A stretch of DNA of 58,431 nt. It comes from Gammaproteobacteria bacterium UBA2810. Lineage in GTDB: Bacteria; Pseudomonadota; Gammaproteobacteria; Enterobacterales; Succinivibrionaceae. How positions within the stretch are numbered: position 1 is the first letter of the stretch; each line of letters starts with the position of its first letter. Below, one piece after another: positions 30,886 through 51,297 of this stretch. The notes beneath the pieces were generated by a model. That model searched no databases, was not told where the DNA came from, and was given only the letters and a program-made list of their open reading frames with translations. Where the stretch lies: the NCBI GenBank assembly GCA_002351705.1, contig DEHC01000009.1, forward strand, positions 1 through 58,431. Reading direction: 5' to 3'. The position numbers were made by a program, and so were the translations under genes.

Positions 30886-31347
30886 ATGGCAGAAGCAGGC
30901 TCATCTCCGGCAAAAAAGACACCGACTATTGTTGATGCGGTTGAAAAGGCTTTCAGCAAAAACGGCATTGTCCTCGCAGACAGCAAAAAAGACGGTGACA
31001 GCGGCATGTTTGCCATCGGCTTCAGCGGATTTTTCGGAGGCAATCTCAGATATGTTGCCGCAGTGAGCAGCAGATCCGAGGCCGGCTACTCTGACTTTCA
31101 CATCAGGACTGCCGGACTCTTCAATGTCCCCGCGGGGAAGGAAGGGCAGGCAGTTAACCTCTGCAACAGCCTCAACCTCTCGCACGACTACGCGAGGTTT
31201 GCCCTGAGCGGCAGCGAGATTGTGATTTCGGCAGACACGTTTGTCAGCAGGGCGACCGCTCCCGATCTCTCGGTCGGCATGGTCATGATGATGAACGATA
31301 TCTGCAGGCAGGTCTATCCGGAGCTTGCGAGCCAGCTTAAGGCCTGA
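30886..31347 (+). CDS. YbjN-domain (putative sensory-transduction/T3SS-chaperone-like) protein
   Basis: Size about 150 aa and weak YbjN-like pattern. Low certainty. Confidence 0.4.
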   Translation: MAEAGSSPAKKTPTIVDAVEKAFSKNGIVLADSKKDGDSGMFAIGFSGFFGGNLRYVAAVSSRSEAGYSDFHIRTAGLFNVPAGKEGQAVNLCNSLNLSHDYARFALSGSEIVISADTFVSRATAPDLSVGMVMMMNDICRQVYPELASQLKA

Positions 31348-31540
31348 TTCTTCTGTCCGGGGCTCTTTCATGCATGGCCACGTTTTTTTTCAGGACCTCT
31401 GTCGCAGACATTGAGGCGTGAAAATGGCAAAGCAATTCTTCAGTCAATAAACATATGCCTCATATTACTGAGTCAAAAGACAGACTGCACTGCTGCGCCA
31501 TTTCAACTTACACTTTAACTTACTCCTTAACTTACTCCTT

Positions 31541-32149
31541 GTGTACCAGTTCAGAGGTTCCATGAATTCCCTATACGATGTACTGAAAGCCGTCCTGAAA
31601 AAAATAGATCGCAGCAGGGGATGTCCTGAGGCGCAGCAGCGCGGTCATGGCCAGACGGCTGACGGCACAGGAGCAGACCGTCCCGAACATGGTTCTGAAT
31701 CACTTAAATCAGACAGCAGTACTGCGTCTGAGCCTGTCCTTGTCAGGCCTGTTCCGGGCTCTGTTGTCTACTGCGATCTTGCCTTCGGCTTTGCCGAGCA
31801 TTCCGGGATCTATATTGGTGATAATCAGATAGTTGCCCTCGAGCATGACGGCAGGATTGTCTCCCGCTCGCCGGAGGGGTTCATGGAAGGCACCCCCGCG
31901 ACGCGCATCTATGTATCCTGCCGCGCTGGACGTGCTGTCGGAAGCGGGAAAGCTGCCGAAAGGGCTAGAAAGATGATCGGGTCCCGCAGGGACTACAACG
32001 TTCTGAGTGACAACTGCCATCAGTTCTGCGCCGGCTGTCTGCTCGGGAATTTCGAGAATTCCATAAATTTCCTCTCTATGCTGCAGATGGAGTGCAGAAT
32101 GGTTCTCGGAGCAGACTCCTGGGGAGTGTGGGATCTCGGGCATCGCTGA
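31541..32149 (+). CDS. LRAT-like NlpC/P60 superfamily protein (putative acyltransferase/phospholipase)
   Basis: H-box HSGIYIGDNQIVALEH and catalytic Cys motif NVLSDNCHQFCAGC. The alternative start is the ATG at 31562. Confidence 0.55.
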   Translation: MYQFRGSMNSLYDVLKAVLKKIDRSRGCPEAQQRGHGQTADGTGADRPEHGSESLKSDSSTASEPVLVRPVPGSVVYCDLAFGFAEHSGIYIGDNQIVALEHDGRIVSRSPEGFMEGTPATRIYVSCRAGRAVGSGKAAERARKMIGSRRDYNVLSDNCHQFCAGCLLGNFENSINFLSMLQMECRMVLGADSWGVWDLGHR

Positions 32150-32221
32150 CTCGCTCTTCTGCAGGCTGGTCAGCAGCCTGTTATCAGAATTAATCGTATT
32201 TCTTATCTGTGCACTCATTAA

Positions 32222-32275
32222 AATTTGGTGGAAAACGGCAAAATAGTCTGAAAATATTTGGTGGAAAACGGCAGA
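32222..32275. repeat. Two tandem copies of an atttggtggaaaacggca motif (period 34 bp) abutting the start of the truncated ATPase ORF
   Basis: aaatttggtggaaaacggcaaaa...atatttggtggaaaacggcagaaaa, read directly. Confidence 0.5.
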
Positions 32276-32875
32276 AAAGCCGGACAGATTCGGTGGCAGA
32301 CGGCCTCCTTTGAGCCCGTGGCTGTCATCCCCGGAGTGAGGCCCGGGCGTATTGAGCGTCTCATCCGTCTGATGCATGATTCAATGGCAGTTAATGCAGC
32401 TTACAGCTCTGAAGATCCTGGCGCCGGTCTGGCACTCACTAGTAATCCTTCACGCTTCAGGCTGCTTGCCGGTGATACAGGTCTCTTCTCCACGCTTGCA
32501 TTCAGGGATAAGGGAGTGGCGGAAAAACCAATCTACAGCGGAATTTTTAATGACAGGATGAACACCGCTATGGGCTTTGTCTACAAGAACGCCGCAGCAC
32601 AGATGCTGAGGTCATCAGGAAGGAGCCTTTTCTTCCACACAATACCGCACAGCGGCGGTAAGAAGCATTACAGCACGGACTTCATAATTTCTGATTCTGA
32701 CGGCATTTCACCGGTTGAGATGAGAATGTCAGGCTACCGCGCTCATGCCTCTCTCGATGCGTTCTGCCGGAAATTCAGGGGAAGGATCAGGAACCGCTGC
32801 ATCATCTCCGCAAGGGATCTGAGAGAGGAAGACGGCATCATCTTCATTTCTGTATACATGACTATGTTCCTCTGA
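32258..32875 (+). pseudogene. C-terminal fragment of an AAA-ATPase of the AAA_14/DUF4143 type (N-terminal ATPase domain absent)
   Basis: AGDTGLFSTL...GFVYKNAAAQML...FFHTIPHSGGKKHYSTDFIIS resemble the DUF4143 C-terminal region. Only about 70 aa lie upstream of it, with no Walker motifs. AT-rich context. Confidence 0.4.
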
Positions 32876-33109: not shown

Positions 33110-36100
33110 ATGACTAACGACAGGCTGAACGTTAAATTTGACTATCCGGAAATCCTCAACTACGCGCTGGTGCAGAGCCAGAAGACGGAGCCTGCATCGC
33201 TTGACATCAGCTCCTCAGAGGAGCTGCGCGATGTTGTCTTCACCGTAAGCGGGGAGGGCATCACGGAGGTCAGGACGCCGGTCAGCATGATTCCTGCGGG
33301 AAACACCGTGACCTTCAGGGACATCAGGATAACGCCTGATGCAGATCGCCTGCGCAAAGCCAGCGAAAGCGCGAGCGGGATGATTAGCCTCACGATCGTG
33401 CAGCACGCCGGGAGTGAGAAGCCAGAGACAGTGTTCAGGGAGGACTATCCGGTAAGGATTCTTGCCTTCAACGAATGGCCCGGCTGTCACGTGCATCCTG
33501 AGCTCATCGCCTCATTCGTCACTCCGAACGCGCCGGAGCTCTCCGCCATACAGGCGAGGGCCGGTGCAATACTCAAAAAGCTCACCGGCGACTCCGCCCT
33601 CGACGGCTACCAGACCCGGGACGCCAACCGCGTGAGGGCACAGGCTGCAGCGGTGTTTGACGCCCTCCGCGAGCAGGGCATCCTCTACTCCGTGCCGCCC
33701 GCGAGCTTTGAGCGCACCGGGCAGCGCATCCGCCTGGCGCCTGATGTGCTGAAGGAAAAGGTCGGCACCTGCGCCGATGCGAGCATCCTGATGGCATCGG
33801 TCTTGGAGTCCGTCGGCCTCCACCCGCTCATAATCACCGTCCCCGGGCATATGTTCATCGGCTGCTGGCTGGTTGACAAGTACAGCGCGCAGCCTGTTAC
33901 TGATGACGCCTCGTTCCTCCGCAGCAGGAGCGGCGACGGCGTCAACGAGCTGGTGCTGGTGAACGCCGTCTGCATCTGCTCTGATTCCGATTACTCGTTC
34001 GAGGACGCCGTTGCCGGCACGAAAAAGTACCTTTCCGATGACGCCGGCGAGACCGTCATCGTGGACGTGAAGCGCTGCCGTCTCGAGAGAGTGCTGCCGC
34101 TTCCCCTTGAGGGCGAGGCTCAGGAGAACGAGGGCGTGAGGCATGAGGCCGTGACAGACGGAGTCGAAAGCCACTACTCCATTGACGAGGATGATCTCAG
34201 CGATGAGAAAGGCAGCGACTACCGCCGCAGGATCTGGGAGCGGAAGCTCCTTGACCTCACACTGCGCAACAACCTCCTCAATATGCGCACCGGCAGGAAG
34301 GTGATGGCATTCATGCCCGGGAACGCCGGAAGGGTGGAGGACATCCTGCAGGCCGGCAGGGATCTCTCCATCCAGCCGAACCCGGAAAGCGGCAGCGATG
34401 AGCTTATCAGCGAAGGGCTGAAGCGCGGCAGCGTCTACTCGGAGCTCAAGGCGGAGGATCTGCAGCCCGAGCTCACCCATCTCTACCGCGAGAGCCGCAA
34501 CTCGCTGGACGAGAACGGCGCCAACACGCTCTTCATCGTGTTCGGCACGCTCAGGTGGTTTGAGACAGAGAAGAGCGTTGTGGCCCGCGAGGCCCCGCTC
34601 CTCCTCTTCCCCGTGCAGCTCATAAGGAAATCCGCCGGCACCTTTGTCCTCCGCGGGCGCGACGAGGACATGAACGTAAACACCACGCTCCTAGAGTACC
34701 TCCGGACCCAGTTCGGCGTGACCGTCAAGGGGCTCGGGGAGCTCCCGGCGGACGAGAGCGGCTATGACATCGACAGGATCCTCGCCACCATCCGCGCGCA
34801 GATCGCGGGACGCCCGCGCTGGGAGGTCAGGGACCGCTGCCTCCTCGGCCTTTTCTCGTTCAGCAAGTTCGTGATGTGGAACGACATCCACGAGAACTTC
34901 AGCCTCATCGCGAAAAACCCGATCATTGACGCGCTCGTTGCAAGGCGCACGCTCGGAGACGGCGGAAAGGAAGTTGACATCAGGAGCATTGATGAGCATG
35001 AGGAGCCCGGGGAGCTCTGCGTCCCGATAGAGGCCGACTCGTCGCAGCTCAGTGCAGTCGCCATGGCGGACGGCGGGCGCAGCTTCATCATGTACGGGCC
35101 TCCGGGCACCGGCAAGAGCCAGACCATCACGAACATCATCGCGAACGCGCTCTGCCATGACAAAAGGGTGCTCTTTGTCGCAGAGAAGGCAGCTGCCCTT
35201 GAGGTGGTGCAGAAGAGGCTTGAGCGCATCGGCATAGGCGCGTTCTGCCTTGAGCTCCACTCGAACAAGGCGACGCGCAGCCATATGCTCGGTCAGCTCC
35301 AGGAGGCGCTTGATGCCGGTCACCCGGCGGAGCCTGCAGAGTTTGAGGAGAAGTCAAGGGAGCTCTTTGAGGAGAGGCAGCACCTCCAGAAGTATATTGA
35401 CGCGCTGCACGCCAGGGGAAGCCGGGGACTCTCCGTGCATGACTGCATTGAGGGATACGAGCTGAGAGCTGGCAGCCCGCTCGGCATTGACCGTGCGTGC
35501 ATCACGGATTCGATGACGAAGGATGACATCACCGCGCTTGCGGGGAAGGTGAGCGGCCTTGAGTCGGTCTTCAGCGTTTCGGGCAATCCTGCGGACCATC
35601 CGCTGAGCGGTCTCATCGTGAAGGAGGAGTCCCTCTCTGCCTCTCAGAAGCTCAGCGAGGGACTCTCGAGGATATCAGGACCGCTCCCGGGCGCGGTTAA
35701 TGCTCTCGTAAGGTATGAGGAGCTCCTTCACCGTGAGGGCAGGGCCGCTTTTTCGGATCTTGAGGAGGCCTGCGTGAGCATCGGCACCTGGGAAAGCGCC
35801 GAGGATGAGAAGAGGAAGCTCCTCGCGACCTGGGCCCCGGAGGCTCTGGATCTGCAGCCGCTTGCGCTGAAGCAGGAGTGGGAGGGAGCAAAGGATTCCT
35901 TCATCCTGTTCAGGTATTTCAAAAAGAAATCGTTCATCAAAAAGACCCGGATCTACAACATGTCGCTCACCGCGGAGAATGCCGACGGCGAGATTGACGC
36001 GCTCCTCTCCTACAGCCGCATGAGGCGCGATATGCCGGAAGGCGCCGTGCGCGCGGGAGAGCTTTCGGCTGACGATAGGAATACCCTGAAGTCACTGCAG

Positions 36101-38269
36101 GAGGCCCTGCATGCCATGTCAGGCGTTGCGGAGATTGAGCTGCCGTCACTGAAGGACGCAGAGGCGAGGATGCAGTCCTGGCTCGGCAGCACGGGGAAGG
36201 CCCGCGACTGGGCCTACTGGTGCAGGGCGAGGAAGGAGCTCATGGATCTTCACATGGAGCCGGTCCTTAACGCTGTCATCGCGGACGGAGTCCCTCCCCG
36301 CGAGGCAGCAGAGCGGTTCCTCAGGGCCGTCTACCGCAATCTCGCCTCCGGGATGATCGACGCGGCGCCGGAGCTCAGGGAGTTCCGCGGACCGGTATTC
36401 GAGGAGAGCATCCGGAAGTACCGGAGCCTTGCGGAGGAGTTCAGGCTCCTCTCGCAGAAGGAGCTCTTCTGCCGTCTTGCAGCCAGGATCCCACAGAGGC
36501 TCAGCGAGCCGAGCGCCCAGTCCGAGATGGGGAAGCTCAGGCGCTACATTGCCTCAAAGGGCCGCGGCATGACCATCCGCCGCATCTTCGACGAGGTGCC
36601 CAACCTCATCAGCAGGCTCTGCCCCTGCATGCTGATGAGCCCGATTTCCGTGGCGCAGTTCCTGAGCCTTGAGCGGGAGCCCTTCGATCTCGTCATCTTC
36701 GATGAGGCGTCGCAGATGCCGACCTCCGAGGCGGTCGGCACCATTGCCCGCGGCAGGGCGCTTGTCGTGGCGGGGGACCCGAAGCAGATGCCGCCCACCA
36801 GCTTCTTCTCGTCTGACACCACGGACGAGAGCGAGTCTGACTATGACGACATGGAGAGCATCCTCGACGACTGCCGCACGCTCTCGATGGATGCGGCGCC
36901 CCTGCAGTGGCATTACCGCTCGAGGAGCGAGAGCCTCATTGCCTTCTCGAACCTCGAGTACTACGGAGGGAGCCTTTACACTTTCCCCTCGGTGAGGGAC
37001 CGTGTCTCGATGGTGCGCTACGTGCCGGTCGAGGGAACCTACGATTTCGGGCGGACAAGGAGCAACCGGGCCGAGGCTGACGCCATTGCGGACGAGGTCA
37101 TCCGCCGCTGGCGCGATCCGGTCCTCAGGAAGGACTCCATCGGCATCATCGCCTTCAGCAAGGCGCAGCAGAACCTCATTGACGACGTGCTCACGGAGCG
37201 CATCGCGGGCGATCCGGAGCTTGAGGCGATGGCATCGCAGGAGAACGAGGGGCTCTTCGTCAAGAACCTCGAGAACGTGCAGGGCGACGAGCGCGATGTC
37301 ATCCTCTTCTCCGTAGGCTACGGCCCTGACAGCCGGGGAAGGGTGTCGATGAACTTCGGGCCCCTCAACGGGAAGGGCGGCGAGAGGCGCCTCAACGTTG
37401 CGGTGAGCCGCGCGAGAAAGGAGATGGTGGTGTTCGCCATCCTGAGGCCCGAGCAGATAGACCTCACGAGGAGCAGCTCCCGCGGGGTCGAGGGCCTCAG
37501 GAGGTTCCTTGAGTTCGCGCGGAGCGGGCAGATTGCGCTCTCCGGCAGCCAGCTCGGGATTCATGCTGATAACGGCATTGCCGCTGCAGTGGCGGACGAG
37601 ATCCGCCGCATGGGCTACGCTGTGGACACCTCGGTCGGCCGCAGCAATTTCAGGGTGGACATCGCGGTGTCAGATCCGAAGGACCGCGACCGCTATATCC
37701 TCGGCATCCTCTGCGACGGCGAGGGCTACTACCGCACGAAGACCGAGCGCGACAGGGAAATTGTCCAGCCCTCGGTCCTCCGCGGCCTCGGCTGGCGGCT
37801 CATCCGTGTCTGGTCAGTTGACTGGTTCGTAAACAAGGAGAAGGAGCTCTCGCGGATCAGGGAGGCGCTCAGGGAGGCTGAGAGAGCGGGCGGTATGCCT
37901 GAGGAGCCCGCCGGGAAGACTGAGCCACTGCCGGCATCTCAGGAGACAGACCCGTCTCAGGAGGCTCCTGCCGCCGCGTCTCATGAAGGGAGCGGTGACA
38001 CAGGGAGCGCTCCGGCAGCTCCCGACTTCCGCCGCGCGCCGGGGCAGGGCATTGATGATATCCCCTCGGGGCAGATCGATGATGCCATCCTATTTGTCGT
38101 CTCGCAGTCAGTGTCGCTTCCTGAGCAGGATCTCAGGAAGAGCGCGGCGAAGGCTCTCGGGTTCGCGAGGACCGGCGCCCACATCGACCAGGTTCTCTCC
38201 GCCCATATCGGAGGCCTGGTGTGCGGAGGGAGGCTCCGGAGGCAGGACGAGAGCATCACCATGCCGTAG
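33110..38269 (+). CDS. 1719-aa multidomain protein: transglutaminase-like cysteine protease domain + DUF4011 + Upf1-like superfamily-1 helicase (AAA_11/AAA_12) + DUF559/REase-like PD-(D/E)xK nuclease + DUF3320
   Basis: TGase core VGTCADASILMASVLESVGLHPLIITVPGHMFIGCW (about 33760). DUF4011 hallmark RRRIWERKLLDLTLRNNLLNMR (about 34230). Walker A IMYGPPGTGKSQT (about 35090). Motif II VIFDEASQM (about 36700). GDPKQMPP, HYRSRSESLIAF, LNVAVSRARKEMVVF. Nuclease-like NFRVDIAVSDP...ILCDGEGYY...GWRLIRVWSVDW (37620-37830). Confidence 0.85.
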   Translation: MTNDRLNVKFDYPEILNYALVQSQKTEPASLDISSSEELRDVVFTVSGEGITEVRTPVSMIPAGNTVTFRDIRITPDADRLRKASESASGMISLTIVQHAGSEKPETVFREDYPVRILAFNEWPGCHVHPELIASFVTPNAPELSAIQARAGAILKKLTGDSALDGYQTRDANRVRAQAAAVFDALREQGILYSVPPASFERTGQRIRLAPDVLKEKVGTCADASILMASVLESVGLHPLIITVPGHMFIGCWLVDKYSAQPVTDDASFLRSRSGDGVNELVLVNAVCICSDSDYSFEDAVAGTKKYLSDDAGETVIVDVKRCRLERVLPLPLEGEAQENEGVRHEAVTDGVESHYSIDEDDLSDEKGSDYRRRIWERKLLDLTLRNNLLNMRTGRKVMAFMPGNAGRVEDILQAGRDLSIQPNPESGSDELISEGLKRGSVYSELKAEDLQPELTHLYRESRNSLDENGANTLFIVFGTLRWFETEKSVVAREAPLLLFPVQLIRKSAGTFVLRGRDEDMNVNTTLLEYLRTQFGVTVKGLGELPADESGYDIDRILATIRAQIAGRPRWEVRDRCLLGLFSFSKFVMWNDIHENFSLIAKNPIIDALVARRTLGDGGKEVDIRSIDEHEEPGELCVPIEADSSQLSAVAMADGGRSFIMYGPPGTGKSQTITNIIANALCHDKRVLFVAEKAAALEVVQKRLERIGIGAFCLELHSNKATRSHMLGQLQEALDAGHPAEPAEFEEKSRELFEERQHLQKYIDALHARGSRGLSVHDCIEGYELRAGSPLGIDRACITDSMTKDDITALAGKVSGLESVFSVSGNPADHPLSGLIVKEESLSASQKLSEGLSRISGPLPGAVNALVRYEELLHREGRAAFSDLEEACVSIGTWESAEDEKRKLLATWAPEALDLQPLALKQEWEGAKDSFILFRYFKKKSFIKKTRIYNMSLTAENADGEIDALLSYSRMRRDMPEGAVRAGELSADDRNTLKSLQEALHAMSGVAEIELPSLKDAEARMQSWLGSTGKARDWAYWCRARKELMDLHMEPVLNAVIADGVPPREAAERFLRAVYRNLASGMIDAAPELREFRGPVFEESIRKYRSLAEEFRLLSQKELFCRLAARIPQRLSEPSAQSEMGKLRRYIASKGRGMTIRRIFDEVPNLISRLCPCMLMSPISVAQFLSLEREPFDLVIFDEASQMPTSEAVGTIARGRALVVAGDPKQMPPTSFFSSDTTDESESDYDDMESILDDCRTLSMDAAPLQWHYRSRSESLIAFSNLEYYGGSLYTFPSVRDRVSMVRYVPVEGTYDFGRTRSNRAEADAIADEVIRRWRDPVLRKDSIGIIAFSKAQQNLIDDVLTERIAGDPELEAMASQENEGLFVKNLENVQGDERDVILFSVGYGPDSRGRVSMNFGPLNGKGGERRLNVAVSRARKEMVVFAILRPEQIDLTRSSSRGVEGLRRFLEFARSGQIALSGSQLGIHADNGIAAAVADEIRRMGYAVDTSVGRSNFRVDIAVSDPKDRDRYILGILCDGEGYYRTKTERDREIVQPSVLRGLGWRLIRVWSVDWFVNKEKELSRIREALREAERAGGMPEEPAGKTEPLPASQETDPSQEAPAAASHEGSGDTGSAPAAPDFRRAPGQGIDDIPSGQIDDAILFVVSQSVSLPEQDLRKSAAKALGFARTGAHIDQVLSAHIGGLVCGGRLRRQDESITMP

Positions 38270-38854
38270 CCGCTCACGGCGGGTTTCCTTATCTGTAGGA
38301 AATCTGCCATCTGACATGTGCGATATATGCTCAAAATCATTTGGGGCTTTCATGATTATTGTGTGGGAGCCCGCGGGGGATCTTCTCATAAGCAGTTGAT
38401 TCAGAAGGGGTATTTCCCTCGGGGCCCCTTTTCCCGGAAATGCGTATATTTTCTGCGCATTGCATTCAGCGTGGTTTCCCTTAGAATTACGGCGCCGGTA
38501 TTATTGGTCATTGACTGACCGGGCGGCACCGACGCCGCCGCGATTCCCAGGACGGGATTCAGGAGCATGATGCCCCGTGCCGGTTGCTTTTTGGCGATTG
38601 TCTTCATCTTTTTGCCCCGCAGGGGGCTATTTCCCCGCCTTTTCACGAGCCCGGTTCCTTTTCCGCTAACGGACCTTTGCATCAGGCTCTCTTCTGCCCT
38701 TCCGGACGATCTTGCCTCCTTCTGCCATTTTCCCGGGATGTGACGTTTTTTCATTCAGCATCAATTGAATTGTCGGATAATGGTGCATATTATTTAAAAG
38801 GGGACGTTCAGCAATCCGCCCTTTTTCAGCGCCTTCAATCCGTGGAGAAATCAA

Positions 38855-39919
38855 ATGGGATTCTTTTCATCATTCATCAAGCCGCAGCTGCCCGACGTAG
38901 TCGAATGGGATCAGATTGATCCGAAGCTGATTTTCTGGAGATGGCCTCATCAGGAAATCAAGAAGGGATCAAAGCTCATCATCCGTCCGGGACAGGACGC
39001 AGTGTTCCTTTTCAACGGCCAGATCGAGGGCGTGTTCACCAAGGACGGCAAGTACGATATTGACTCCGAGATTATCCCGTTCCTCTCGACCCTGAAGGGC
39101 TTCATGTACGGCTTTGACTCCGCGATGAGAGCCGAGGTCCTCTTTGTCAACACCAAGCAGCAGAGCGAGAGATGGGGCACCCAGACCCCTATAATGCTCT
39201 CCTGCCCGGGGCTCCCCGGCGGCCTTCCGGTAAGGGCGTTCGGCAACTTCGTGGTCAGGCCCGGCGACTATCCGCTCCTCATCGAGAACATCGCGGGAGT
39301 CTCGGAGCAGTTCTCCGTGGAGGATGTGAGGGAGCGTATGCGCATGAGCCTTGCACCGCTCCTCATCGAGGCTGTGTCAAAGAGCGGCCAGAACGTGCTT
39401 GATCTGCAGGGCCATGTCTCCGAGCTCGGCGCGATGGTCGGCAAGGCCATGAACGAGCAGATGATGAAGATCGGCCTCAATATCGTCGAGTTCAATATCG
39501 CCAGCTTCTCCTATCCTGATGAGGTCAGGAGGATGCAGGAGAAGGCCGCAGGGCAGGCCATGGTCGGCGATCTCGGCAGGTACCAGGGCATCGCCGTCGC
39601 TGACGGCTTCTCGAATCCCGGTTCCCCTGCCGGCATGACGGCTGCCGCCATGATGGGCATGAACATGGGCGCCGGGATGGGCATGGGCTTCGGCGGTATG
39701 TACGGCGGCGCTGCAGGGGCTGCCGGCGCGGCCGGTGCCTCGCAGCGGCAGAACGCTGCCCCCGGGACCGGAGTGCAGCCTGCGGGGGCTGCCGGCGCCC
39801 AGGGCGGCGCGCAGTCCTCCGGGCCCCAGGGCGGCAGCGGCCCCAATTTCTGTCCGAACTGCGGCGCGAAGGTGAGCGGCTCCAAATTCTGCCCCAACTG
39901 CGGAGCGAAGCTCGTCTGA
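38855..39919 (+). CDS. SPFH/Band-7 (Band_7_1-like) domain protein with Gly/Ala/Met-rich linker and C-terminal double zinc ribbon
   Basis: GFFSSFIKPQLPDVVEWDQ...LIIRPGQDAVFLFNGQIEGVF N-terminus typical of the SPFH Band_7_1 family. C-terminal FCPNCGAKVSGSKFCPNCGAKLV. GGAG SD. Confidence 0.7.
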   Translation: MGFFSSFIKPQLPDVVEWDQIDPKLIFWRWPHQEIKKGSKLIIRPGQDAVFLFNGQIEGVFTKDGKYDIDSEIIPFLSTLKGFMYGFDSAMRAEVLFVNTKQQSERWGTQTPIMLSCPGLPGGLPVRAFGNFVVRPGDYPLLIENIAGVSEQFSVEDVRERMRMSLAPLLIEAVSKSGQNVLDLQGHVSELGAMVGKAMNEQMMKIGLNIVEFNIASFSYPDEVRRMQEKAAGQAMVGDLGRYQGIAVADGFSNPGSPAGMTAAAMMGMNMGAGMGMGFGGMYGGAAGAAGAAGASQRQNAAPGTGVQPAGAAGAQGGAQSSGPQGGSGPNFCPNCGAKVSGSKFCPNCGAKLV

Positions 39920-39957
39920 GCATGATTCAGGATTAAGATCCGGAAGGTCAGAGCAGA

Positions 39958-39984
39958 AAGGCCGGCTCACTTTGAGCCGGCCTT
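39958..39984. terminator. Perfect 12-bp hairpin between convergent genes
   Basis: aaggccggctca-ctt-tgagccggcctt. Lies between the SPFH gene stop (39919) and the DUF445 gene stop (40012). Confidence 0.5.
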
Positions 39985-40011
39985 AGTGCATCCGGGAACT
40001 GGCACTTCTCC

Positions 40012-41022
40012 CTAGAACAGCGCGTTGATGAATCCCATGATGAAGCCGAGCCCCGCGCCGAACCAGACCACGGCACTGAGCTCCTTCTTCATGACTCCGA
40101 GGAGGACCTGCTCCGCCTCGTCAATATCCATCTCGTTGATGCGGTTCTCGATGACCCTGCTCAGGTTGAAGGCCTGAAGCATCGCCGGAAGCTTCTCCGT
40201 CACAAGGTGGCGGTACGCCCCGATGAGGCTCTCCGTCACCTTCTGCAGCAGCTCCTCCTTTCCGGCGAGGAGCGCGCTTACCTGCTTCCCCATGAGCTTC
40301 TCTGACTCGCTCTCTGCCATGCCGCCCACGATATCTGCGGCATTCTTCTCCATGATTTCCCGGATATTCTCCGAGAGCAGCTCCCTCAGCGGATCACGGA
40401 GCGATTCGATGATGCTGTCCGTGATCTCGCCGGCCTTTCCGCCGAGAACGCTGTTGATCGCCCTGCCGATGAGGCCGCCGACCGCCTCGGTCAGGCGGCC
40501 GCTGATGGCCTTGAGGAGCTCTCCCTTGTCGCGGAGCTTCACGATGATCTGATCCGCGGCAATGCCGGCGATGCGATCCCCCATTTCGGGATCCCTGAGC
40601 TTCTCCGAGGCAAGAGAGGTGAAGCCGTTGCGGATGCTGCCGGAGGCAGCGGCAATCTCCTCCCCGCTGAAATAGTGACCGAGGAATTCCCCGAGCGTCT
40701 CGTCATTATGGCGCTGCCGGTCGAGGTATTTCTCAATGGCGGAGCGGAGCTTCCCGATCATCTCATCGGAGAGCAGGTTCTTCCCGAGGACCTCACCGCT
40801 GATGAGGTTCTCGCTGACAGCCTTTCCGACCTCCCTGGCAATCCTGCCTCGCTCCTTCGGGATGATGCCCGGCGTGAAAGGGATGTGGAAGCCCTTTATG
40901 TACCACGCCCTGTGCGGCCTGAAGAGCATGCGCACTGCGATGTCGTTCGTGATGTAGCCTATGAGTGCGCCGATTGCGGGGCCGGCGACAAGCCTGTATT
41001 CAGCAAGCAGTTCAATTGTCAT
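40012..41022 (-). CDS. DUF445 family membrane protein
   Basis: IGALIGYITNDIAVRMLFRPHRAWYIKGFHIPFTPGIIPK N-terminal signature and a C-terminal TM segment. True start is the ATG at 41022 with GGAGG SD (the ORF track starts at 41220). Confidence 0.7.
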   Translation of the reverse strand: MTIELLAEYRLVAGPAIGALIGYITNDIAVRMLFRPHRAWYIKGFHIPFTPGIIPKERGRIAREVGKAVSENLISGEVLGKNLLSDEMIGKLRSAIEKYLDRQRHNDETLGEFLGHYFSGEEIAAASGSIRNGFTSLASEKLRDPEMGDRIAGIAADQIIVKLRDKGELLKAISGRLTEAVGGLIGRAINSVLGGKAGEITDSIIESLRDPLRELLSENIREIMEKNAADIVGGMAESESEKLMGKQVSALLAGKEELLQKVTESLIGAYRHLVTEKLPAMLQAFNLSRVIENRINEMDIDEAEQVLLGVMKKELSAVVWFGAGLGFIMGFINALF

Positions 41023-41275
41023 GTTGCGGATCCTCCCGGAGAGGCAGATGCTGATTAGGATGCTCTCCCTTCTCTTCGCATTATAATGTACGGGATATGA
41101 AGTGACACAAAACAACAGATTCAAGGTCAGGAATACGCGCCTCCCGTCACGGCATCCAAAGGTTGCATGCAGGTCCCTGATCCCCGATAATTTCCCTGTC
41201 CGGCATTGCTCTGCCGGCATTTTGTCCCCGGTCTCTCAGTCCGGGGCCGCTTTTTACAGTCCTGGAAGATTCATC

Positions 41276-42484
41276 ATGAAAAGCTTTGAGTGCAGCAGCT
41301 GCGGCGGGTTCATGGAATGGGATCCGGAGAGGCAGTGCCTTTCCTGCCCGAACTGCGGCAGCAGCGTTCCGGTCATGCGCGACGTGCCGCAGCTTCCCGT
41401 TCCGTTTGAATGGGGGACAGTCCCTCCCGAGATAGGGAAGCTCTCGGAGTTCTCTGACAGCCCGGTCATCTGCCCGTCGTGCCACGCCGACATCAGGCCG
41501 AGGGAGGAGACGGTCTCCATGCTCTGCCCGTACTGCGGCACCGCGCTGGTCTTCGACGAGAAGCAGAGCTTTTACCTTACCCCGAACGGGGTCGTCCCCG
41601 AGGCGATCTCGCTCAGGCAGGCAATGAAGTCGGTCGAGAAATGGAGCAGGACTCATTTCTTCGCTCCCACAGTATTCCCGAAGCTCATCGAGAAGAAGTT
41701 CATCAGGAACTGCTATGTCCCGTTCTGGGTGTTCTCCGCCAATATCGCATATTCCTTCGAGGGCGTCGGATCTACGTTCTCAGAGCGGGCTGCCGGGCTC
41801 TCCGGCACCAGTTCCTATCTCGCGAGAAAGCACAGGCGCGAGCAGAAGAGCGAGCACCAGTGCTCGGGACGGAACAGATTCACCGCAAGCGATGTCAGGA
41901 TCTGCGCCTCTTCGAAGCTGAGCAGGGCAGCATCCGATGCCATCTCGGCAGTCTCCTACGGAAAAGTCTGCGACTACCGGCCGGAATACCTCGCGGGGCG
42001 CATTGTGGATCTGGGCAACATCGGCATCGAGACCGGAATGAAGCAGGCTGAGGCGCGGATGAGGGAAATGGCGGAGATCCACGCGAAGGCCATGATAATG
42101 AGCCACGGCTACACCTCGGTCAGGATCACCTCGTTCAGCATCAAGATCTCAGATGCCTCCTACAGCCAGATCCTGATCCCCTGCTACCGGATCATCTACC
42201 GCTACGCCGGAAAGCTCTATTCGGTGGTGGTGAACGGCGAGAACGGCAGGGCAATAGGAGACTATCCGCTCTCGGTCATGAAGGCGGTGATAATCCCGTT
42301 CGTGCTCTGCATGCTCCTCGCCGTGTTCCTCTGCAAGGTACTGGATGTGTCGGTCGGGAGCGCGGGCGCCTTCGGCCTTGTTCTTAGCATAACGTTTTCC
42401 GCAGCGGCCTATGTTCTTTCCTCAATAAGGAAGAAGGCCAACATCAGGGATCACGGCAGGATCTTCTTCAGGACAGATGACTGA
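41276..42484 (+). CDS. Double-zinc-ribbon membrane-anchored protein, divergent member (paralog 1) of the five-gene family in this window
   Basis: MKSFECSSCGGFMEWD...CPNCG / CPSCHADI...CPYCGTALVFDEKQSFYLTPNGVVP, then VPFWVF, PEYLAG, IIYRYAGKLYSVVVNGENGRAIGDYP, C-terminal TM helices. Collinear with the ORFs at 47280-52530. Confidence 0.7.
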   Translation: MKSFECSSCGGFMEWDPERQCLSCPNCGSSVPVMRDVPQLPVPFEWGTVPPEIGKLSEFSDSPVICPSCHADIRPREETVSMLCPYCGTALVFDEKQSFYLTPNGVVPEAISLRQAMKSVEKWSRTHFFAPTVFPKLIEKKFIRNCYVPFWVFSANIAYSFEGVGSTFSERAAGLSGTSSYLARKHRREQKSEHQCSGRNRFTASDVRICASSKLSRAASDAISAVSYGKVCDYRPEYLAGRIVDLGNIGIETGMKQAEARMREMAEIHAKAMIMSHGYTSVRITSFSIKISDASYSQILIPCYRIIYRYAGKLYSVVVNGENGRAIGDYPLSVMKAVIIPFVLCMLLAVFLCKVLDVSVGSAGAFGLVLSITFSAAAYVLSSIRKKANIRDHGRIFFRTDD

Positions 42485-42579
42485 GTACACCCGTGTTGAT
42501 GTGGTGGGCCTGCGCTCTGCCTCAGGCAGAATCCGCTGAATGAGTGTCCGCAGCGGCGGACGATTCTGCGTTATCCGTA

Positions 42580-43443: not shown

Positions 43444-44385
43444 TCAGATATTGAATGCACCGAACAATTCCTGACGGTATGCTTTGTCAGTAATGATTCT
43501 GGAAATATCATCATTCCTGTTCTGTGAGGTCAGGATCTGTATGAGTTTAGCGAAACGCTCCTCACCGCGATCCTCGCCGATTTTTATCCCGCGTTCCATG
43601 CCGCGCTCTTCTCCGCGATCCTCAGCATCCTTTATATCTGAGCGGTAATCCATACGGGCTATCTCGTTATTAATGTAGTTCATGCGCTCCTCCCTGCTGC
43701 TGAAAAATTCATCGCATGCGTCATATGCCTTGCTTATTACATCATCGCACATTGCGAGCTCCTGTTTCCGTTTCTTCCGGCGGAAAGCGAAAAAACCCAT
43801 CCAGCGCTCAATCCTCGTCATTTCGCTGGCAGGCTTGTTTCTCGCTGCCTTCAGGAATTTCCGGAGCTCAAGAAAGTGGAATCTGAGATTTTTGCCGAAA
43901 CTCTCGTAAGGATCGTCGTCCCATCTGATACTGCAGGACGAATGCACGATTGCTTTCTTGCGAATGCTGAAAGCGAGGATGTTGATCGTGATGGCAGGGC
44001 TAGCTTCCAGATAGTCCTCTCCGGCATGCAGGCCTGTGGAATACATATATGTCCAGTAGGCAAGCGTGCGCTTATCCATGTTGTGCCGGCTGGCAACCTG
44101 CGCCTCGACATCAATGAGCTCTCCGGTATCGAGCCTGCACGCGACATCAAAGCGCGGTGCCTTGTCCGCCTTGTTATAGGGGATCTGCTCCGTCGGCCTG
44201 AACTCGATGTCGTTGATCCTGTGCCCGAGCGACTCGCTGAGCACTGAGTTCAGGAAATCTACTGTGAAGTGCTTGCGCTCCTCCTTTCCGAATACAAACT
44301 TGAACAGCAGGTCGTCCATCGTATTGATGTGCTGGTTCTCGATCTTTGTCTGAATTATGCTTCTGATTTTCTTTTCGTCCTGCAT
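43444..44385 (-). CDS. Rpn/YhgA-family PD-(D/E)xK recombination-promoting nuclease / putative transposase
   Basis: DDLLFKFVFG...FLNSVL...IEFRPTEQ...DVACRLDTGELIDVEAQ nuclease core. C-terminal DAEDRGEERGMERGIKIGEDRGEERFAKLIQ repeats typical of the family. AT-rich gene. Confidence 0.6.
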   Translation of the reverse strand: MQDEKKIRSIIQTKIENQHINTMDDLLFKFVFGKEERKHFTVDFLNSVLSESLGHRINDIEFRPTEQIPYNKADKAPRFDVACRLDTGELIDVEAQVASRHNMDKRTLAYWTYMYSTGLHAGEDYLEASPAITINILAFSIRKKAIVHSSCSIRWDDDPYESFGKNLRFHFLELRKFLKAARNKPASEMTRIERWMGFFAFRRKKRKQELAMCDDVISKAYDACDEFFSSREERMNYINNEIARMDYRSDIKDAEDRGEERGMERGIKIGEDRGEERFAKLIQILTSQNRNDDISRIITDKAYRQELFGAFNI

Positions 44386-47279: not shown

Positions 47280-48521
47280 ATGAAACTTTACAGCTGCCAT
47301 GCCTGCGGCGGATCCATGGAGTGGGACGGACAGTCAGGCGGACTGAAGTGCAAGAACTGCGGCACGACGGTAAAGGTCGAGGATACCGAGGCGCTCGGCT
47401 ATCACCCCTACGAGACGCTGCCGGAGTTCATGAGCCTCCAGGACTACCCGGAGAAAGTCATCCAGTGCCCGGGCTGCGGGGCCGAGATCAAGGCTGACGC
47501 CAAGACTGTCTCCATGGGCTGCCCTTACTGCGGGGCAAGCCTCGTCCTTGACGAGAAGCAGCTCTCGTTTGCGAAGCCGGACGGCGTTGCTCCCGTAATG
47601 ATCTCCGGCGACAGGGTGAGGCAGCTTGTGAAGGAGTGGTGCGGCAGGCACATGTTCGCGCCCAATCTCGCGTCCAAGCACCTTGAGGTCAAGTTCGTCT
47701 CCCCGCAGTACATCCCGTTCTGGGTGTTCAGGGCCCATGTAAGGGGAGAGTATTCCGGCCGCGGCGGAAAGGACAGGACTGTCACCAGGAAGAATGATGA
47801 CGGCACAACCGTCACCAGGACCGTCACCGACTGGTATCCTATCCACGGCACCGTAAGCGATGATCTCGAGAACTTCGGCGTGTCGGCCGATGAGAACATC
47901 AATAAGGAATATGCAGACTTTCTTTTTGACTCAACGCCTGATGACGCCTTTGCCGAGTGGAAGCCGGAGTATTTCGCCGGAAGCTACTCCTTCATCCCGA
48001 CCGTTCCCGTGGAGGATGCCGAGGAGCAGGCCAAGGATGACATGAAGAGCGAGCTCGAGAGCCGCACCGAGTCAGACCTCAGGAGAGAGTACGATCATGT
48101 CGAGTTCAGCTCGTTTGATGCTGAGTACAGCGACATGGCCTGGCTCCTCGATCAGATCCCGGGGTATTTCGTAATCTGCCGCTACCACGGCGGGATCTAT
48201 GTTGACGCGGTGAACGGCGTTACCGGTGAGATTCACGGAACCTACCCGGTCTCCTTCCTCAAGGTCGCCATAGCCTTCATCCTCGCGGCCGCCGCCGCGT
48301 TCGCCGCCTTCGCCTTCTTCGTCCCGGAGAGCGTCAGCGTCTGCACCAATGAGAGCTGCCGCTTCAGCTGGGGAGTCTTCGGCACGTCGGCCGCCATCTT
48401 CGGGGTCATAGCGCTCATCGTCTATGTCTGCATCCATCTCTGGCTGAAGGGCAAGATCATCGGCAGGGACGAGCTGCAGAAGGATCCTTGGCTTAAGGAA
48501 ATCATGGAGAAGATCAAATAG
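47280..48521 (+). CDS. Double-zinc-ribbon membrane-anchored protein, tandem paralog 2
   Basis: MKLYSCHACGGSMEWDG...CKNCG; CPGCGAEIKADAKTVSMGCPYCGASL; QYIPFWVF; YSGRGG; KPEYFAGS; QIPGYFVICRYHGGIYVDAVNGVTGEI; 2 TM; tail GRDELQKDPWLKEIMEKIK. Confidence 0.75.
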   Translation: MKLYSCHACGGSMEWDGQSGGLKCKNCGTTVKVEDTEALGYHPYETLPEFMSLQDYPEKVIQCPGCGAEIKADAKTVSMGCPYCGASLVLDEKQLSFAKPDGVAPVMISGDRVRQLVKEWCGRHMFAPNLASKHLEVKFVSPQYIPFWVFRAHVRGEYSGRGGKDRTVTRKNDDGTTVTRTVTDWYPIHGTVSDDLENFGVSADENINKEYADFLFDSTPDDAFAEWKPEYFAGSYSFIPTVPVEDAEEQAKDDMKSELESRTESDLRREYDHVEFSSFDAEYSDMAWLLDQIPGYFVICRYHGGIYVDAVNGVTGEIHGTYPVSFLKVAIAFILAAAAAFAAFAFFVPESVSVCTNESCRFSWGVFGTSAAIFGVIALIVYVCIHLWLKGKIIGRDELQKDPWLKEIMEKIK

Positions 48522-49895: not shown

Positions 49896-50006
49896 CGAGC
49901 CGCATCCTGTTTCCGGCTGTCATGGCGCCGCTCCCGGCAGCCACCGTGTTCCAGACATCCAGTCATGCTGTCCGCAATCAGGGACTTTCAAACCGGAGGA
50001 ACCTTC

Positions 50007-51221: not shown

Positions 51222-51297
51222 CAGCCGCCATGCGGCGCGGTATGGGGGAATGGCAGGGGTATTCATTCCACAGATGCCTGATCCTGAGGGGGATTTT

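What the first reader, a model, noticed from the sequence alone, without database searches (positions are those of the whole stretch)
38270..41022. SPFH/Band-7 protein with Gly/Ala/Met-rich linker and twin C-terminal zinc ribbons, wedged between the helicase-nuclease gene and a convergent DUF445 membrane gene
The ORF at 38855-39919 has an SPFH (Band_7_1-type) N-terminal domain. It is followed by roughly 90 aa of low-complexity sequence (GMNMGAGMGMGFGGMYGGAAGAAGAAG...) and ends with FCPNCGAKVSGSKFCPNCGAKLV. SPFH proteins with zinc ribbons are poorly characterised. They are often found in mobile or defence contexts. It is separated from the giant helicase gene by a 586-bp gap with no convincing ORF. 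It shares a perfect 12-bp hairpin terminator (39958-39984) with the convergent DUF445 gene. It may act with the upstream helicase-nuclease as a two-gene module, or be an independent membrane-associated stress or abortive-infection-type factor.
Basis: partly seen in the sequence, partly recalled or inferred. Interest (0 to 1): 0.55.

Follow-up and report, generated by a model that had tools for sequence, protein, structure and literature searches.

The report
YdjI/SamI-type SPFH membrane-stress scaffold gene
The gene is an ordinary member of a large, already studied family of bacterial membrane-stress scaffold proteins (Bacillus subtilis YdjI/SamI); it sits beside the anti-phage helicase only in this one lineage, so the proposed helicase+SPFH defence module is not supported.

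Summary
The ORF at 38855-39919 is real. It has a Band_7_1 SPFH domain (E 4.7e-50), a Met/Gly/Ala-rich linker of about 90 aa, and a C-terminal zinc ribbon. The ribbon is one C4 ribbon built from two CPNCG knuckles, not twin ribbons. The 12-bp hairpin at 39958-39984 is also real.

The architecture is not obscure. More than 4,000 homologues share it, and it matches B. subtilis YdjI/SamI, which is recruited to the membrane by YdjG/YdjH and localises PspA. In 79 distant genome loci:
- pspA lies directly upstream in 61.
- A YdjG-like Zn-ribbon membrane protein is adjacent in 26.
- A DUF4011 helicase is present in 0.

The window does encode a YdjG-like protein, at 41276-42484, just beyond the DUF445 gene.

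The helicase matches NCBIfam ProA and the PADLOC single-gene candidate PDC-S37. Its homologues elsewhere have no SPFH neighbour.

The SPFH gene has its own conserved promoter-like site and a Shine-Dalgarno sequence. The block 38756-42484 (SPFH, DUF445, YdjG-like) is 99.7% identical to another strain, whereas the helicase side is only 69-90% identical. The SPFH block and the helicase therefore have separate histories.

Verdict: a known family in an unusual host (Succinivibrionaceae) with no adjacent pspA. Low interest.

The parts
38855..39919 (+). ydjI/samI-like gene: a cytosolic SPFH scaffold protein of 354 aa with no predicted TM segment
   Evidence: ORF list. Pfam Band_7_1 E 4.7e-50. More than 4186 homologues share the same architecture. 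45-49% identical over its full length to proteins encoded in pspA-ydjG-ydjH-ydjI-type operons of Bacillales.
38936..39550 (+). SPFH (Band_7_1) domain, residues 28-232
   Evidence: In the AlphaFold model the core has pLDDT 80-93. Foldseek top hits are HflK/C, prohibitin, stomatin and flotillin, E 6e-9 to 1e-5.
39551..39847 (+). Helical then disordered Met/Gly/Ala-rich low-complexity linker, residues about 233-331
   Evidence: Helices predicted to about residue 276, pLDDT below 50 for 270-326. Length and sequence vary across the family, but the M/G-rich character is conserved. A 12-nt indel relative to L003 lies at 39793-39804.
39848..39913 (+). Single C4 zinc ribbon (two CPNCG knuckles), residues 332-353
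   Evidence: PF13240 matches model positions 1-23 of 23, 27.2 bits. C333, C336, C346 and C349 are invariant in 20 of 20 sequences.
38765..38793 (+). Sigma-70-like promoter candidate (TTGAAT, 17-nt spacer, TATTAT), 62 nt upstream of the ATG
   Evidence: Consensus scan. Both hexamers are invariant in three haplotypes whose surrounding gap sequence is only 55-75% identical. No transcript data.
38844..38847 (+). Shine-Dalgarno GGAG, 7 nt before the ATG
   Evidence: Read directly from the sequence.
39958..39984 (.). Perfect 12-bp, GC-rich hairpin between the convergent SPFH and DUF445 genes; a likely bidirectional terminator
   Evidence: delta-G -29.3 and -32.3 kcal/mol, z -4.5 and -6.4. The T-tract is weak and the terminator scan did not call it.
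41276..42484 (+). ydjG/samG-like gene: 402 aa, two N-terminal zinc ribbons, a cytoplasmic domain of about 250 aa and two C-terminal TM helices. It is the likely membrane anchor for the SPFH protein.
   Evidence: Homologues lie next to the SPFH gene in 26 of 79 distant loci, 23 of them immediately upstream. Bacillales members sit in the ydjG position and share the published YdjG termini (primers in PMC8581546). Zn_Ribbon_TF hits match what PMC9239133 reports for YdjG. The 402-aa start is supported by identical database entries.
40012..41022 (-). DUF445 (YheB/UPF0754-type) membrane protein gene lying between the samI-like and samG-like genes. It is physically part of the exchanged cassette, but a functional link is unproven.
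   Evidence: PF04286 E 8.8e-36. Present between the two genes in all close relatives. Absent from all 79 distant SPFH loci.
38756..42484 (.). 3.7-kb block (promoter + SPFH + DUF445 + YdjG-like) that is 99.7% identical to strain L003, while both flanks are 69-90% identical
   Evidence: 10 substitutions plus one 12-nt indel inside the block, dense mismatches outside it. The left edge is at the promoter -35 box and the right edge is at the YdjG-like stop codon.
33110..38269 (+). Neighbour, judged NOT part of the unit: a 1719-aa DUF4011 / SF1 helicase / MTES_1575 nuclease protein (ProA / PDC-S37 type anti-phage gene)
   Evidence: NCBIfam ProA 1680.5 bits against a cutoff of 1500. PADLOC PDC-S37 1071 bits. 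Only 82-86% identical between strains whose SPFH proteins are 99% identical.

Best explanation
The ORF encodes a YdjI/SamI-type SPFH protein. It is a soluble, oligomerising scaffold. It is brought to the cytoplasmic face of the membrane by a zinc-ribbon membrane protein of the YdjG/SamG family, encoded here at 41276-42484. At the membrane it organises or restrains an envelope-stress complex. In Firmicutes that complex localises the ESCRT-III-like protein PspA.

The gene is transcribed from its own promoter and ends at the shared hairpin. It is not functionally coupled to the upstream ProA/PDC-S37 helicase-nuclease, which is a stand-alone anti-phage gene in a small variable island.

Shown:
- Family membership and architecture.
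- The conserved pspA and ydjG neighbourhood in relatives.
- Lack of any helicase linkage outside this lineage.
- Separate recombination history from the helicase.

Inferred from B. subtilis work:
- Membrane recruitment by the YdjG-like protein.
- Oligomeric scaffold function.
- A role in envelope-stress signalling.

Unknown:
- Whether this organism has a pspA elsewhere.
- What, if anything, replaces YdjH.
For: Architecture:
- Pfam Band_7_1 E 4.7e-50 plus a single zinc ribbon.
- The predicted fold matches HflK/C, prohibitin and stomatin.
- More than 4186 homologues share SPFH + M/G-rich linker + FCPxCG...FCPxCG.

Match to YdjI:
- The primers in that paper encode MSFFRNQL... and ...GQKLV*, which match the family termini.

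Neighbourhood in 79 distant loci:
- PspA_IM30 gene within 3.5 kb upstream on the same strand in 61.
- YdjG-like gene in 26.
- TPM (YdjH-like) gene in 13, all with the order pspA-ydjG-ydjH-ydjI in Bacillales and relatives.
- DUF4011 helicase in 0 and DUF445 in 0.
- The window's 41276-42484 protein clusters with the YdjG-position proteins.

Independent expression and history:
- Own promoter-like site, invariant across haplotypes.
- Block 38756-42484 is 99.7% identical to L003 while the helicase and gap are 69-94%.

Helicase is stand-alone:
- It passes the NCBIfam ProA cutoff and matches the single-gene PADLOC model PDC-S37.
- Four full-length homologues in Bacteroides, Klebsiella, Rhizobium and Paracoccus share no common neighbour and none has an SPFH gene.
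- None of the 16 plasmid records covering at least 80% of the helicase is among the 152 with an SPFH hit.
- In three Ralstonia megaplasmids carrying both genes, they lie 0.4-1.1 Mb apart.

Function (B. subtilis):
- YdjG/YdjH recruit YdjI, and YdjI recruits PspA (PMC8581546).
- SamI restrains SamGH signalling, and PspA is dispensable for that phenotype (bioRxiv 10.64898/2026.02.06.704340).
Against: - No PspA gene and no TPM/YdjH-like gene lie anywhere in the 58-kb window. Two of the four canonical operon partners are therefore missing locally.
- The YdjG-like gene is not co-oriented next to the SPFH gene. It is separated from it by an inverted DUF445 gene.
- The host is a Succinivibrionaceae gammaproteobacterium, whereas all functional data come from B. 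subtilis at about 45% identity.
- The 79 comparison loci are the top-scoring hits. They are dominated by Lachnospiraceae and Bacillales, so they are not phylogenetically independent.
- The helicase adjacency is conserved in every close relative found (L001-L003, L083, L084, L091, L094). A lineage-specific functional link cannot be formally excluded.
- The promoter is only a consensus match.
Confidence: 0.75

Rival explanations
1. One reading: the SPFH-ZnR protein and the upstream DUF4011 helicase-nuclease form a two-gene anti-phage module. The SPFH protein would, for example, tether or regulate the helicase at the membrane.
For: The two genes are adjacent and on the same strand in the window and in all seven strain- or species-level relatives recovered. 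The helicase is a bona fide defence-type protein.
Against: - None of 79 distant SPFH loci has a helicase homologue within 10 kb, and 60 of them have at least 5.5 kb of upstream sequence.
- Helicase homologues elsewhere have no SPFH neighbour.
- The SPFH protein gives no PADLOC hit.
- A 585-bp gap separates the genes, and the SPFH gene has its own conserved promoter-like site.
- A sharp identity break at 38756 shows that the two genes were exchanged independently.
- The PADLOC model for the helicase belongs to the single-gene ('S') class.
Confidence: 0.04
2. The three-gene block SPFH - DUF445 - YdjG-like is itself a PspA-independent membrane-integrity or abortive-infection-type module belonging to the defence island. 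DUF445 would act as effector or as a stand-in for YdjH.
For: - The block 38756-42484 was exchanged between lineages as one unit. It exists as at least two highly divergent alleles in an otherwise 100% identical strain background: L003 versus L091, with DUF445 70% and YdjG-like 73% identical at the protein level.
- It abuts a defence gene.
- In 5 of 5 contexts examined, the nearest outside relatives of the DUF445 protein (45-48% identity) head operons encoding Dynamin_N/DUF87, Pkinase-AAA or DO-GTPase2 proteins. These operons lie next to VapE-like, TIR and CHAT genes.
- SamGHI has PspA-independent signalling roles in B. subtilis.
Against: - The trio is not found outside this lineage: DUF445 is absent from 79 of 79 distant SPFH loci, and there is no SPFH in the five DUF445 contexts.
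- None of the three proteins gives a PADLOC hit.
- GC content matches the genome.
- Allelic mosaicism next to a defence island can arise by hitch-hiking.
- The contigs are metagenomic, so some mosaicism could come from assembly, although the same mosaic appears in three assemblies.
Confidence: 0.1
3. A generic SPFH scaffold of the HflK/C or stomatin/NfeD kind that cages a membrane protease or another client, unrelated to the Psp/Sam pathway.
For: The structural matches are to HflK/C, prohibitin, stomatin and QmcA. There is no pspA nearby.
Against: - The protein has no TM segment or hairpin, unlike HflK/C and QmcA. It belongs to Band_7_1 rather than Band_7: PF01145 gives only E 3.6e-6 against 4.7e-50 for PF13421.
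- There is no NfeD or FtsH neighbour in the window or in the 79 loci.
- Full-length similarity and a shared partner gene tie it to YdjI.
Confidence: 0.05

Closest known systems
Bacillus subtilis YdjI / SamI (pspA-ydjGHI = pspA-samGHI operon)
   Same: - Same domain order: Band_7_1 SPFH, a low-complexity linker and a C-terminal Cys4 zinc finger, with no membrane anchor.
- Same termini (MxFF...NQ..., ...CPNCGxKLV).
- About 45-47% identical over its full length to Bacillales proteins in the ydjI position.
- A YdjG-like zinc-ribbon membrane protein is encoded nearby.
   Different: - No pspA and no ydjH (TPM-domain) gene within 58 kb.
- The ydjG-like gene is downstream and separated by an inverted DUF445 gene.
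- The host is a Gram-negative Succinivibrionaceae.
- Four further ydjG-like paralogues lie 5-10 kb away.
Lachnospiraceae pspA-(ydjG)-SPFH-pcrA loci (nearest sequence relatives, 45-49% identity)
   Same: Same protein architecture. YdjH is also often absent there. 18 of 79 loci likewise lack an adjacent pspA.
   Different: There the gene sits in a conserved housekeeping neighbourhood (DUF1836, pspA, pcrA, a tRNA-U5 methyltransferase-like gene). Here it lies between a defence helicase and DUF445.
HflK/HflC, QmcA, prohibitin, stomatin and flotillin SPFH cages
   Same: SPFH alpha/beta core followed by long helices (Foldseek E down to 6e-9). Higher-order oligomer formation is likely.
   Different: - Those proteins insert into the membrane themselves and cage proteases or channels.
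- This protein is predicted to be soluble, has a disordered M/G-rich tail and a zinc ribbon, and belongs to a different Pfam family (PF13421 rather than PF01145).
- Sequence identity is 10-15%.
Hhe / ProA / PDC-S37 DUF4011 helicase-nuclease anti-phage proteins (the neighbour)
   Same: The upstream gene passes the NCBIfam ProA cutoff. It shares the DUF4011 + SF1 helicase + MTES_1575 nuclease layout with Hhe.
   Different: These are single-protein systems. No SPFH partner appears in their models or in the neighbourhoods examined. I could not find the primary paper for the name ProA.

Membership tests
SPFH / Band 7 superfamily (Pfam PF13421 Band_7_1) | Profile match above the curated gathering score | tested here: met
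   170.6 bits against a cutoff of 24, E 4.7e-50, model positions 2-207 of 211.
SPFH / Band 7 superfamily (Pfam PF13421 Band_7_1) | SPFH alpha/beta fold | tested here: met
   In the AlphaFold model the core has pLDDT 80-93. Foldseek against the PDB gives 41 hits with E <= 1e-3, all of them SPFH proteins.
SPFH / Band 7 superfamily (Pfam PF13421 Band_7_1) | Assembly into large ring or cage oligomers | not testable with these tools
   Only monomer prediction is available. Helices 222-276 follow the core, as in cage-forming relatives.
YdjI / SamI family | Architecture: SPFH + low-complexity region + C-terminal zinc finger, with no TM segment | tested here: met
   Description of YdjI in PMC8581546.
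YdjI / SamI family | Full-length sequence similarity to proteins in the ydjI position of pspA-ydjGHI operons | tested here: met
   44-48% identity, E about 1e-100, to the Planococcus, Perspicuibacillus and Bacillus kwashiorkori loci with the order PspA, Zn-ribbon/TM protein, TPM protein, SPFH.
YdjI / SamI family | Genomic linkage to a ydjG/samG-like zinc-ribbon membrane protein | tested here: met
   The 41276-42484 protein clusters with the YdjG-position proteins. It lies 1.36 kb downstream, with DUF445 in between.
YdjI / SamI family | Genomic linkage to pspA | tested here: not met
   No PspA_IM30 homologue in the 58-kb window by tblastn with 61 PspA queries. 18 of the 79 relatives also lack an adjacent pspA, so this is typical of the family but not universal.
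YdjI / SamI family | Genomic linkage to ydjH/samH (TPM-domain membrane protein) | tested here: not met
   No TPM homologue in the window. Present in only 13 of 79 loci, mostly Bacillales.
YdjI / SamI family | Membrane recruitment by YdjG/H and recruitment of PspA | not testable with these tools
   Experimental property (PMC8581546).
Two-gene defence module with a DUF4011 (Hhe/ProA-type) helicase | Recurrent co-occurrence of the two genes in independent lineages | tested here: not met
   0 of 79 from the SPFH side. From the helicase side, four annotated neighbourhoods lack an SPFH gene, 16 full-length plasmid hits carry no SPFH on the replicon, and the Ralstonia copies are 0.4-1.1 Mb apart.
Two-gene defence module with a DUF4011 (Hhe/ProA-type) helicase | Co-transcription or shared evolutionary history | tested here: inconclusive
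   No transcript data. The SPFH gene has its own conserved promoter-like site, and a recombination breakpoint at 38756 separates the two genes. Both argue against the module.
Known anti-phage defence protein families (PADLOC-DB 2.0) | Match of the SPFH protein to any defence-system model | tested here: not met
   No hit at E <= 0.01. No PHROG hit either.
Double ('twin') zinc ribbon (PF12773 DZR) | Two complete CxxC...CxxC ribbons (eight Cys) | tested here: not met
   Only four Cys. DZR scores 22.2 bits against a cutoff of 27.3 and matches model positions 11-33 of 45. PF13240 fits as one complete ribbon.

The most novel reading that the evidence does not exclude
In this Succinivibrionaceae lineage the samI-like and samG-like genes have been uncoupled from pspA and samH and combined with a DUF445 membrane protein whose nearest relatives head conflict-system-like operons. 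The three genes would form a 3.7-kb cassette that is swapped between lineages as a unit and sits at the edge of a defence island. It would work as a PspA-independent sensor of membrane perturbation (for example by phage) rather than in housekeeping envelope stress.
Probability: 0.1. Interest if true: 0.5.

Novelty: new member of a known kind. Interest (0 to 1): 0.2.

Why it matters
Mostly as a correction. The SPFH-plus-zinc-ribbon architecture should be read as YdjI/SamI (the Psp/Sam envelope-stress pathway), and adjacency to a defence gene in one lineage is not evidence of a module.

Three minor points have some value. First, a Gram-negative rumen bacterium carries this otherwise mostly Firmicute gene pair without an adjacent pspA. 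That fits recent evidence that SamGHI has PspA-independent roles. Second, the cassette-level exchange next to a ProA helicase shows how sequence flanking a defence island becomes mosaic. Third, the DUF445 subfamily that heads conflict-like operons is a separate lead.

Tried and rejected
- Rfam scan of 38100-41400 at E <= 1: only a sub-threshold anti-hemB match at 41181-41255, outside the gap.
- Small ORFs in the gap: the 117-aa minus-strand ORF and three plus-strand ORFs are not conserved as reading frames. They carry in-frame stops in L003 and L091 and 1-2 nt indels, and nearly every substitution is non-synonymous.
- Conserved 150-nt island as a structured RNA: fold z-scores are only -1.2 and -1.7, one compensatory pair among three sequences, and it is not repeated elsewhere.
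- pspA, TPM or pcrA remnants in the window: none.
- PDB sequence search with the family profile: no hit. Relatives are found only at the fold level.
- Literature on 'PDC-S37' and on ProA as an anti-phage protein: nothing found. The label is therefore taken from NCBIfam as it stands.
- Phage or defence association of the SPFH family: no PADLOC or PHROG hit, and one dubious 4-kb 'Bacteriophage sp.' fragment.
- tRNA or att-site explanation for the island boundary: no tRNA near 30-43 kb.
- HflK/C-like protease cage: rejected for lack of a TM segment and of NfeD or FtsH neighbours.
Full report
**Observation.** The ORF at 38855-39919 (+) encodes 354 aa. Pfam gives Band_7_1 (PF13421) over residues 28-232 at E 4.7e-50. 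It gives a single complete zinc-ribbon match (PF13240, model positions 1-23 of 23) over residues 332-353. Between the two lies a linker rich in Met, Gly and Ala. An AlphaFold model built from a 20-sequence alignment is confident for the SPFH core (pLDDT 80-93). It predicts helices up to about residue 276 and is disordered for residues 270-326. Foldseek against the PDB returns only SPFH proteins at the top: HflK/C, prohibitin, stomatin and flotillin, with E down to 6e-9.

The C-terminus has four cysteines, all invariant in the family alignment. It is therefore one C4 ribbon made of two CPNCG knuckles, not twin ribbons. The hairpin at 39958-39984 is a perfect 12-bp stem with a 3-nt loop (delta-G about -30 kcal/mol, z -4.5 and -6.4). 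Its T-tracts are weak, and the terminator scan did not call it.

**The gap.** The gap 38270-38854 has no ORF whose frame is conserved between haplotypes. It does contain a TTGAAT, 17-nt spacer, TATTAT promoter-like site at 38765-38793. Both hexamers of that site are invariant in three haplotypes, although the surrounding gap sequence is only 55-75% identical. A GGAG lies 7 nt before the ATG.

**What the protein is.** A search of 5.8 billion proteins returned more than 4186 hits at E <= 1e-5. Nearly all hits are 320-360 aa with the same Pfam combination. In the alignment, the SPFH domain, the M/G-rich linker and the FCPxCG...FCPxCG ending are conserved throughout.

This matches B. subtilis YdjI, recently renamed SamI. 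[quoted passage not shown] The cloning primers in that paper encode MSFFRNQL... and ...GQKLV*, which are the termini seen across the family.

**Neighbourhood test.** One of these (L003) is a near-identical strain, which leaves 79 distant loci. I called ORFs, searched them with the window's proteins and clustered the neighbours. Representatives were annotated with Pfam. Counts among the 79 loci:

| Neighbour | Loci (of 79) |
|---|---|
| PspA_IM30 gene within 3.5 kb upstream, same strand | 61 |
| Zn-ribbon + TM protein homologous to window 41276-42484 | 26 (23 immediately upstream) |
| TPM-domain protein | 13 |
| PcrA/UvrD downstream (Lachnospiraceae synteny) | 55 |
| DUF4011 helicase | 0 |
| DUF445 | 0 |

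The 13 loci with a TPM protein all have the order PspA, Zn-ribbon/TM, TPM, SPFH. This is the published pspA-ydjG-ydjH-ydjI operon. In Bacillales the proteins in the ydjG, ydjH and pspA positions share the termini encoded by the published primers (MxIxYKCPNC... and ...GGGF...SRGSF...RFKDIM). The window's downstream gene is therefore a YdjG/SamG homologue. It also shows the Zn_Ribbon_TF signal that PMC9239133 reports for YdjG.

**The helicase.** The 1719-aa upstream protein carries DUF4011, SF1 helicase motifs and an MTES_1575 nuclease domain. It passes the NCBIfam 'anti-phage protein ProA' cutoff (1680.5 bits against 1500). It also hits Hhe below threshold. In PADLOC it matches PDC-S37, a single-gene candidate.

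Homologues occur in 460 plasmid records. None of the 16 records covering at least 80% of the helicase is among the 152 records with an SPFH hit. In three Ralstonia megaplasmids carrying both genes, they are 0.4-1.1 Mb apart. Four annotated neighbourhoods (Bacteroides, Klebsiella, Rhizobium, Paracoccus) share no common neighbour and have no SPFH gene. The helicase-SPFH adjacency is seen only in strain- or species-level relatives of the window (L001-L003, L083, L084, L091, L094).

**Separate histories.** Against strain L003, the window is 69-94% identical through the helicase and the gap. Identity then jumps to 99.7% from 38756 to 42484, with 10 substitutions and one 12-nt indel in the linker. 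It falls again immediately after the YdjG-like stop codon.

A third haplotype (L091) has flanks 100% identical to L003. Its cassette is strongly diverged: SPFH is 88% identical at the protein level, DUF445 70% and the YdjG-like protein 73%. The promoter + SPFH + DUF445 + YdjG-like block has therefore moved between lineages as a unit, without the helicase. The same mosaic appears in three assemblies (L001, L003, L084), which argues against a chimeric contig. All of these sequences are nevertheless metagenomic.

**Host and local peculiarities.** Identical proteins in NCBI are labelled Succinivibrionaceae bacterium. The window is chromosomal, with LeuRS, MutL, MiaA and aconitase genes. The nearest SPFH relatives outside the lineage are Firmicutes at 45-49% identity, with no intermediates between 85% and 50%. 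GC content is unremarkable. An old horizontal acquisition is plausible but not shown.

The window contains no pspA and no TPM gene. It does contain four more YdjG-like paralogues at 47.3-52.5 kb. About a fifth of the comparison loci (18 of 79) also lack an adjacent pspA. In three of them the YdjG-like gene lies downstream of the SPFH gene, as it does here.

**Mechanism.** By homology with B. subtilis, the soluble SPFH protein is recruited to the membrane by the YdjG-like protein and oligomerises there. It then localises PspA (PMC8581546) and/or restrains signalling by the membrane partners. The second role does not need PspA (bioRxiv 10.64898/2026.02.06.704340). Which of these roles applies here cannot be decided from sequence. 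The family assignment is very secure. The mechanism is inferred.

**Residual alternative.** The DUF445 gene is part of the exchanged block. In five of five contexts examined, its closest outside relatives (45-48% identity) are the first gene of long operons. Those operons encode Dynamin_N/DUF87, Pkinase-AAA or DO-GTPase2 proteins and lie beside VapE-like, TIR and CHAT genes.

Taken with the defence-island position and the allelic diversity, this leaves about a 10% chance that the cassette has a conflict-related role. None of the three proteins hits PADLOC or PHROGs meaningfully, and the trio is not found outside this lineage.

**Verdict.** The sequence description is largely right, apart from the ribbon count. 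The defence-module interpretation is not supported. The gene is a new member of a known, experimentally studied family in an atypical genomic setting. Interest is low (0.2).

Noticed in passing
window 38480-38630: A non-coding island of about 150 nt inside the helicase-SPFH gap is 88-89% identical across three haplotypes, while the rest of the gap is 55-75% identical. Indels of 1-2 nt exclude coding. It has no Rfam hit, its folding is not significant (z -1.2 and -1.7), and it is not repeated elsewhere. Function unknown.
   Followed up: partly
window 40012-41022 (-); loci L104-L112: In 5 of 5 contexts examined, the closest homologues of the DUF445 protein outside this lineage (45-48% identity) are the first gene of long same-strand operons. 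Those operons encode Dynamin_N + DUF87, Pkinase-AAA or DO-GTPase2 proteins. They lie next to VapE-like, HU-HIG, NusG-paralogue, TIR and CHAT genes in Bacteroidota-looking contigs. This DUF445 subfamily may be a recurrent leader gene of conflict-type operons.
   Followed up: partly
window 47280-48521, 48616-49895, 49965-51221, 51250-52530 (all +): A tandem array of four further YdjG/SamG-like proteins (N-terminal zinc ribbons; 27-33% identical to YdjG-like proteins of other loci) lies downstream of an HlyD-like/ABC-2 transporter pair. The second copy is split over two reading frames and may be a pseudogene.
   Followed up: partly
window 35900-42500 versus L003 and L091: Population-level mosaic. 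L003 and L091 are 100% identical in both flanks but differ by 5-45% across the helicase 3' half, the gap and the SPFH-DUF445-YdjG-like cassette. L003's cassette is 99.7% identical to the window, whose flanks are only about 87% identical to L003. This is a recombination hot spot at the edge of the defence island.
   Followed up: yes
L001 1905-2969 (protein P0001): One strain variant has Phe instead of the third zinc-ribbon cysteine (KFFPNCG), and its precomputed Pfam annotation lacks the ribbon. This is either a sequencing error or a natural loss of zinc binding.
   Followed up: no
window 30886-32875: The small island upstream of the helicase holds an LRAT/NlpC-P60-like protein (31541-32149). 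It also holds a truncated C-terminal fragment of a PDC-S01-like protein (32258-32875), which is longer in L003. In L001, an AAA_14/DUF4143 gene occupies the roughly 2-kb stretch that L001, L003 and L091 carry after the YdjG-like gene and that the window lacks.
   Followed up: partly
window 43444-44385 (-): A PD-(D/E)XK family transposase-like gene (PF12784, E 6e-46) lies just downstream of the cassette and of an ArsC-family gene.
   Followed up: no
window 33110-38269: RefSeq annotates full-length homologues of this helicase as 'DUF3320 domain-containing protein'. In P. aeruginosa a large DUF4011 gene is a conserved flank of defence hotspot cDHS1 (PMC10250203). That echoes its position here at the border of a variable region.
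   Followed up: no
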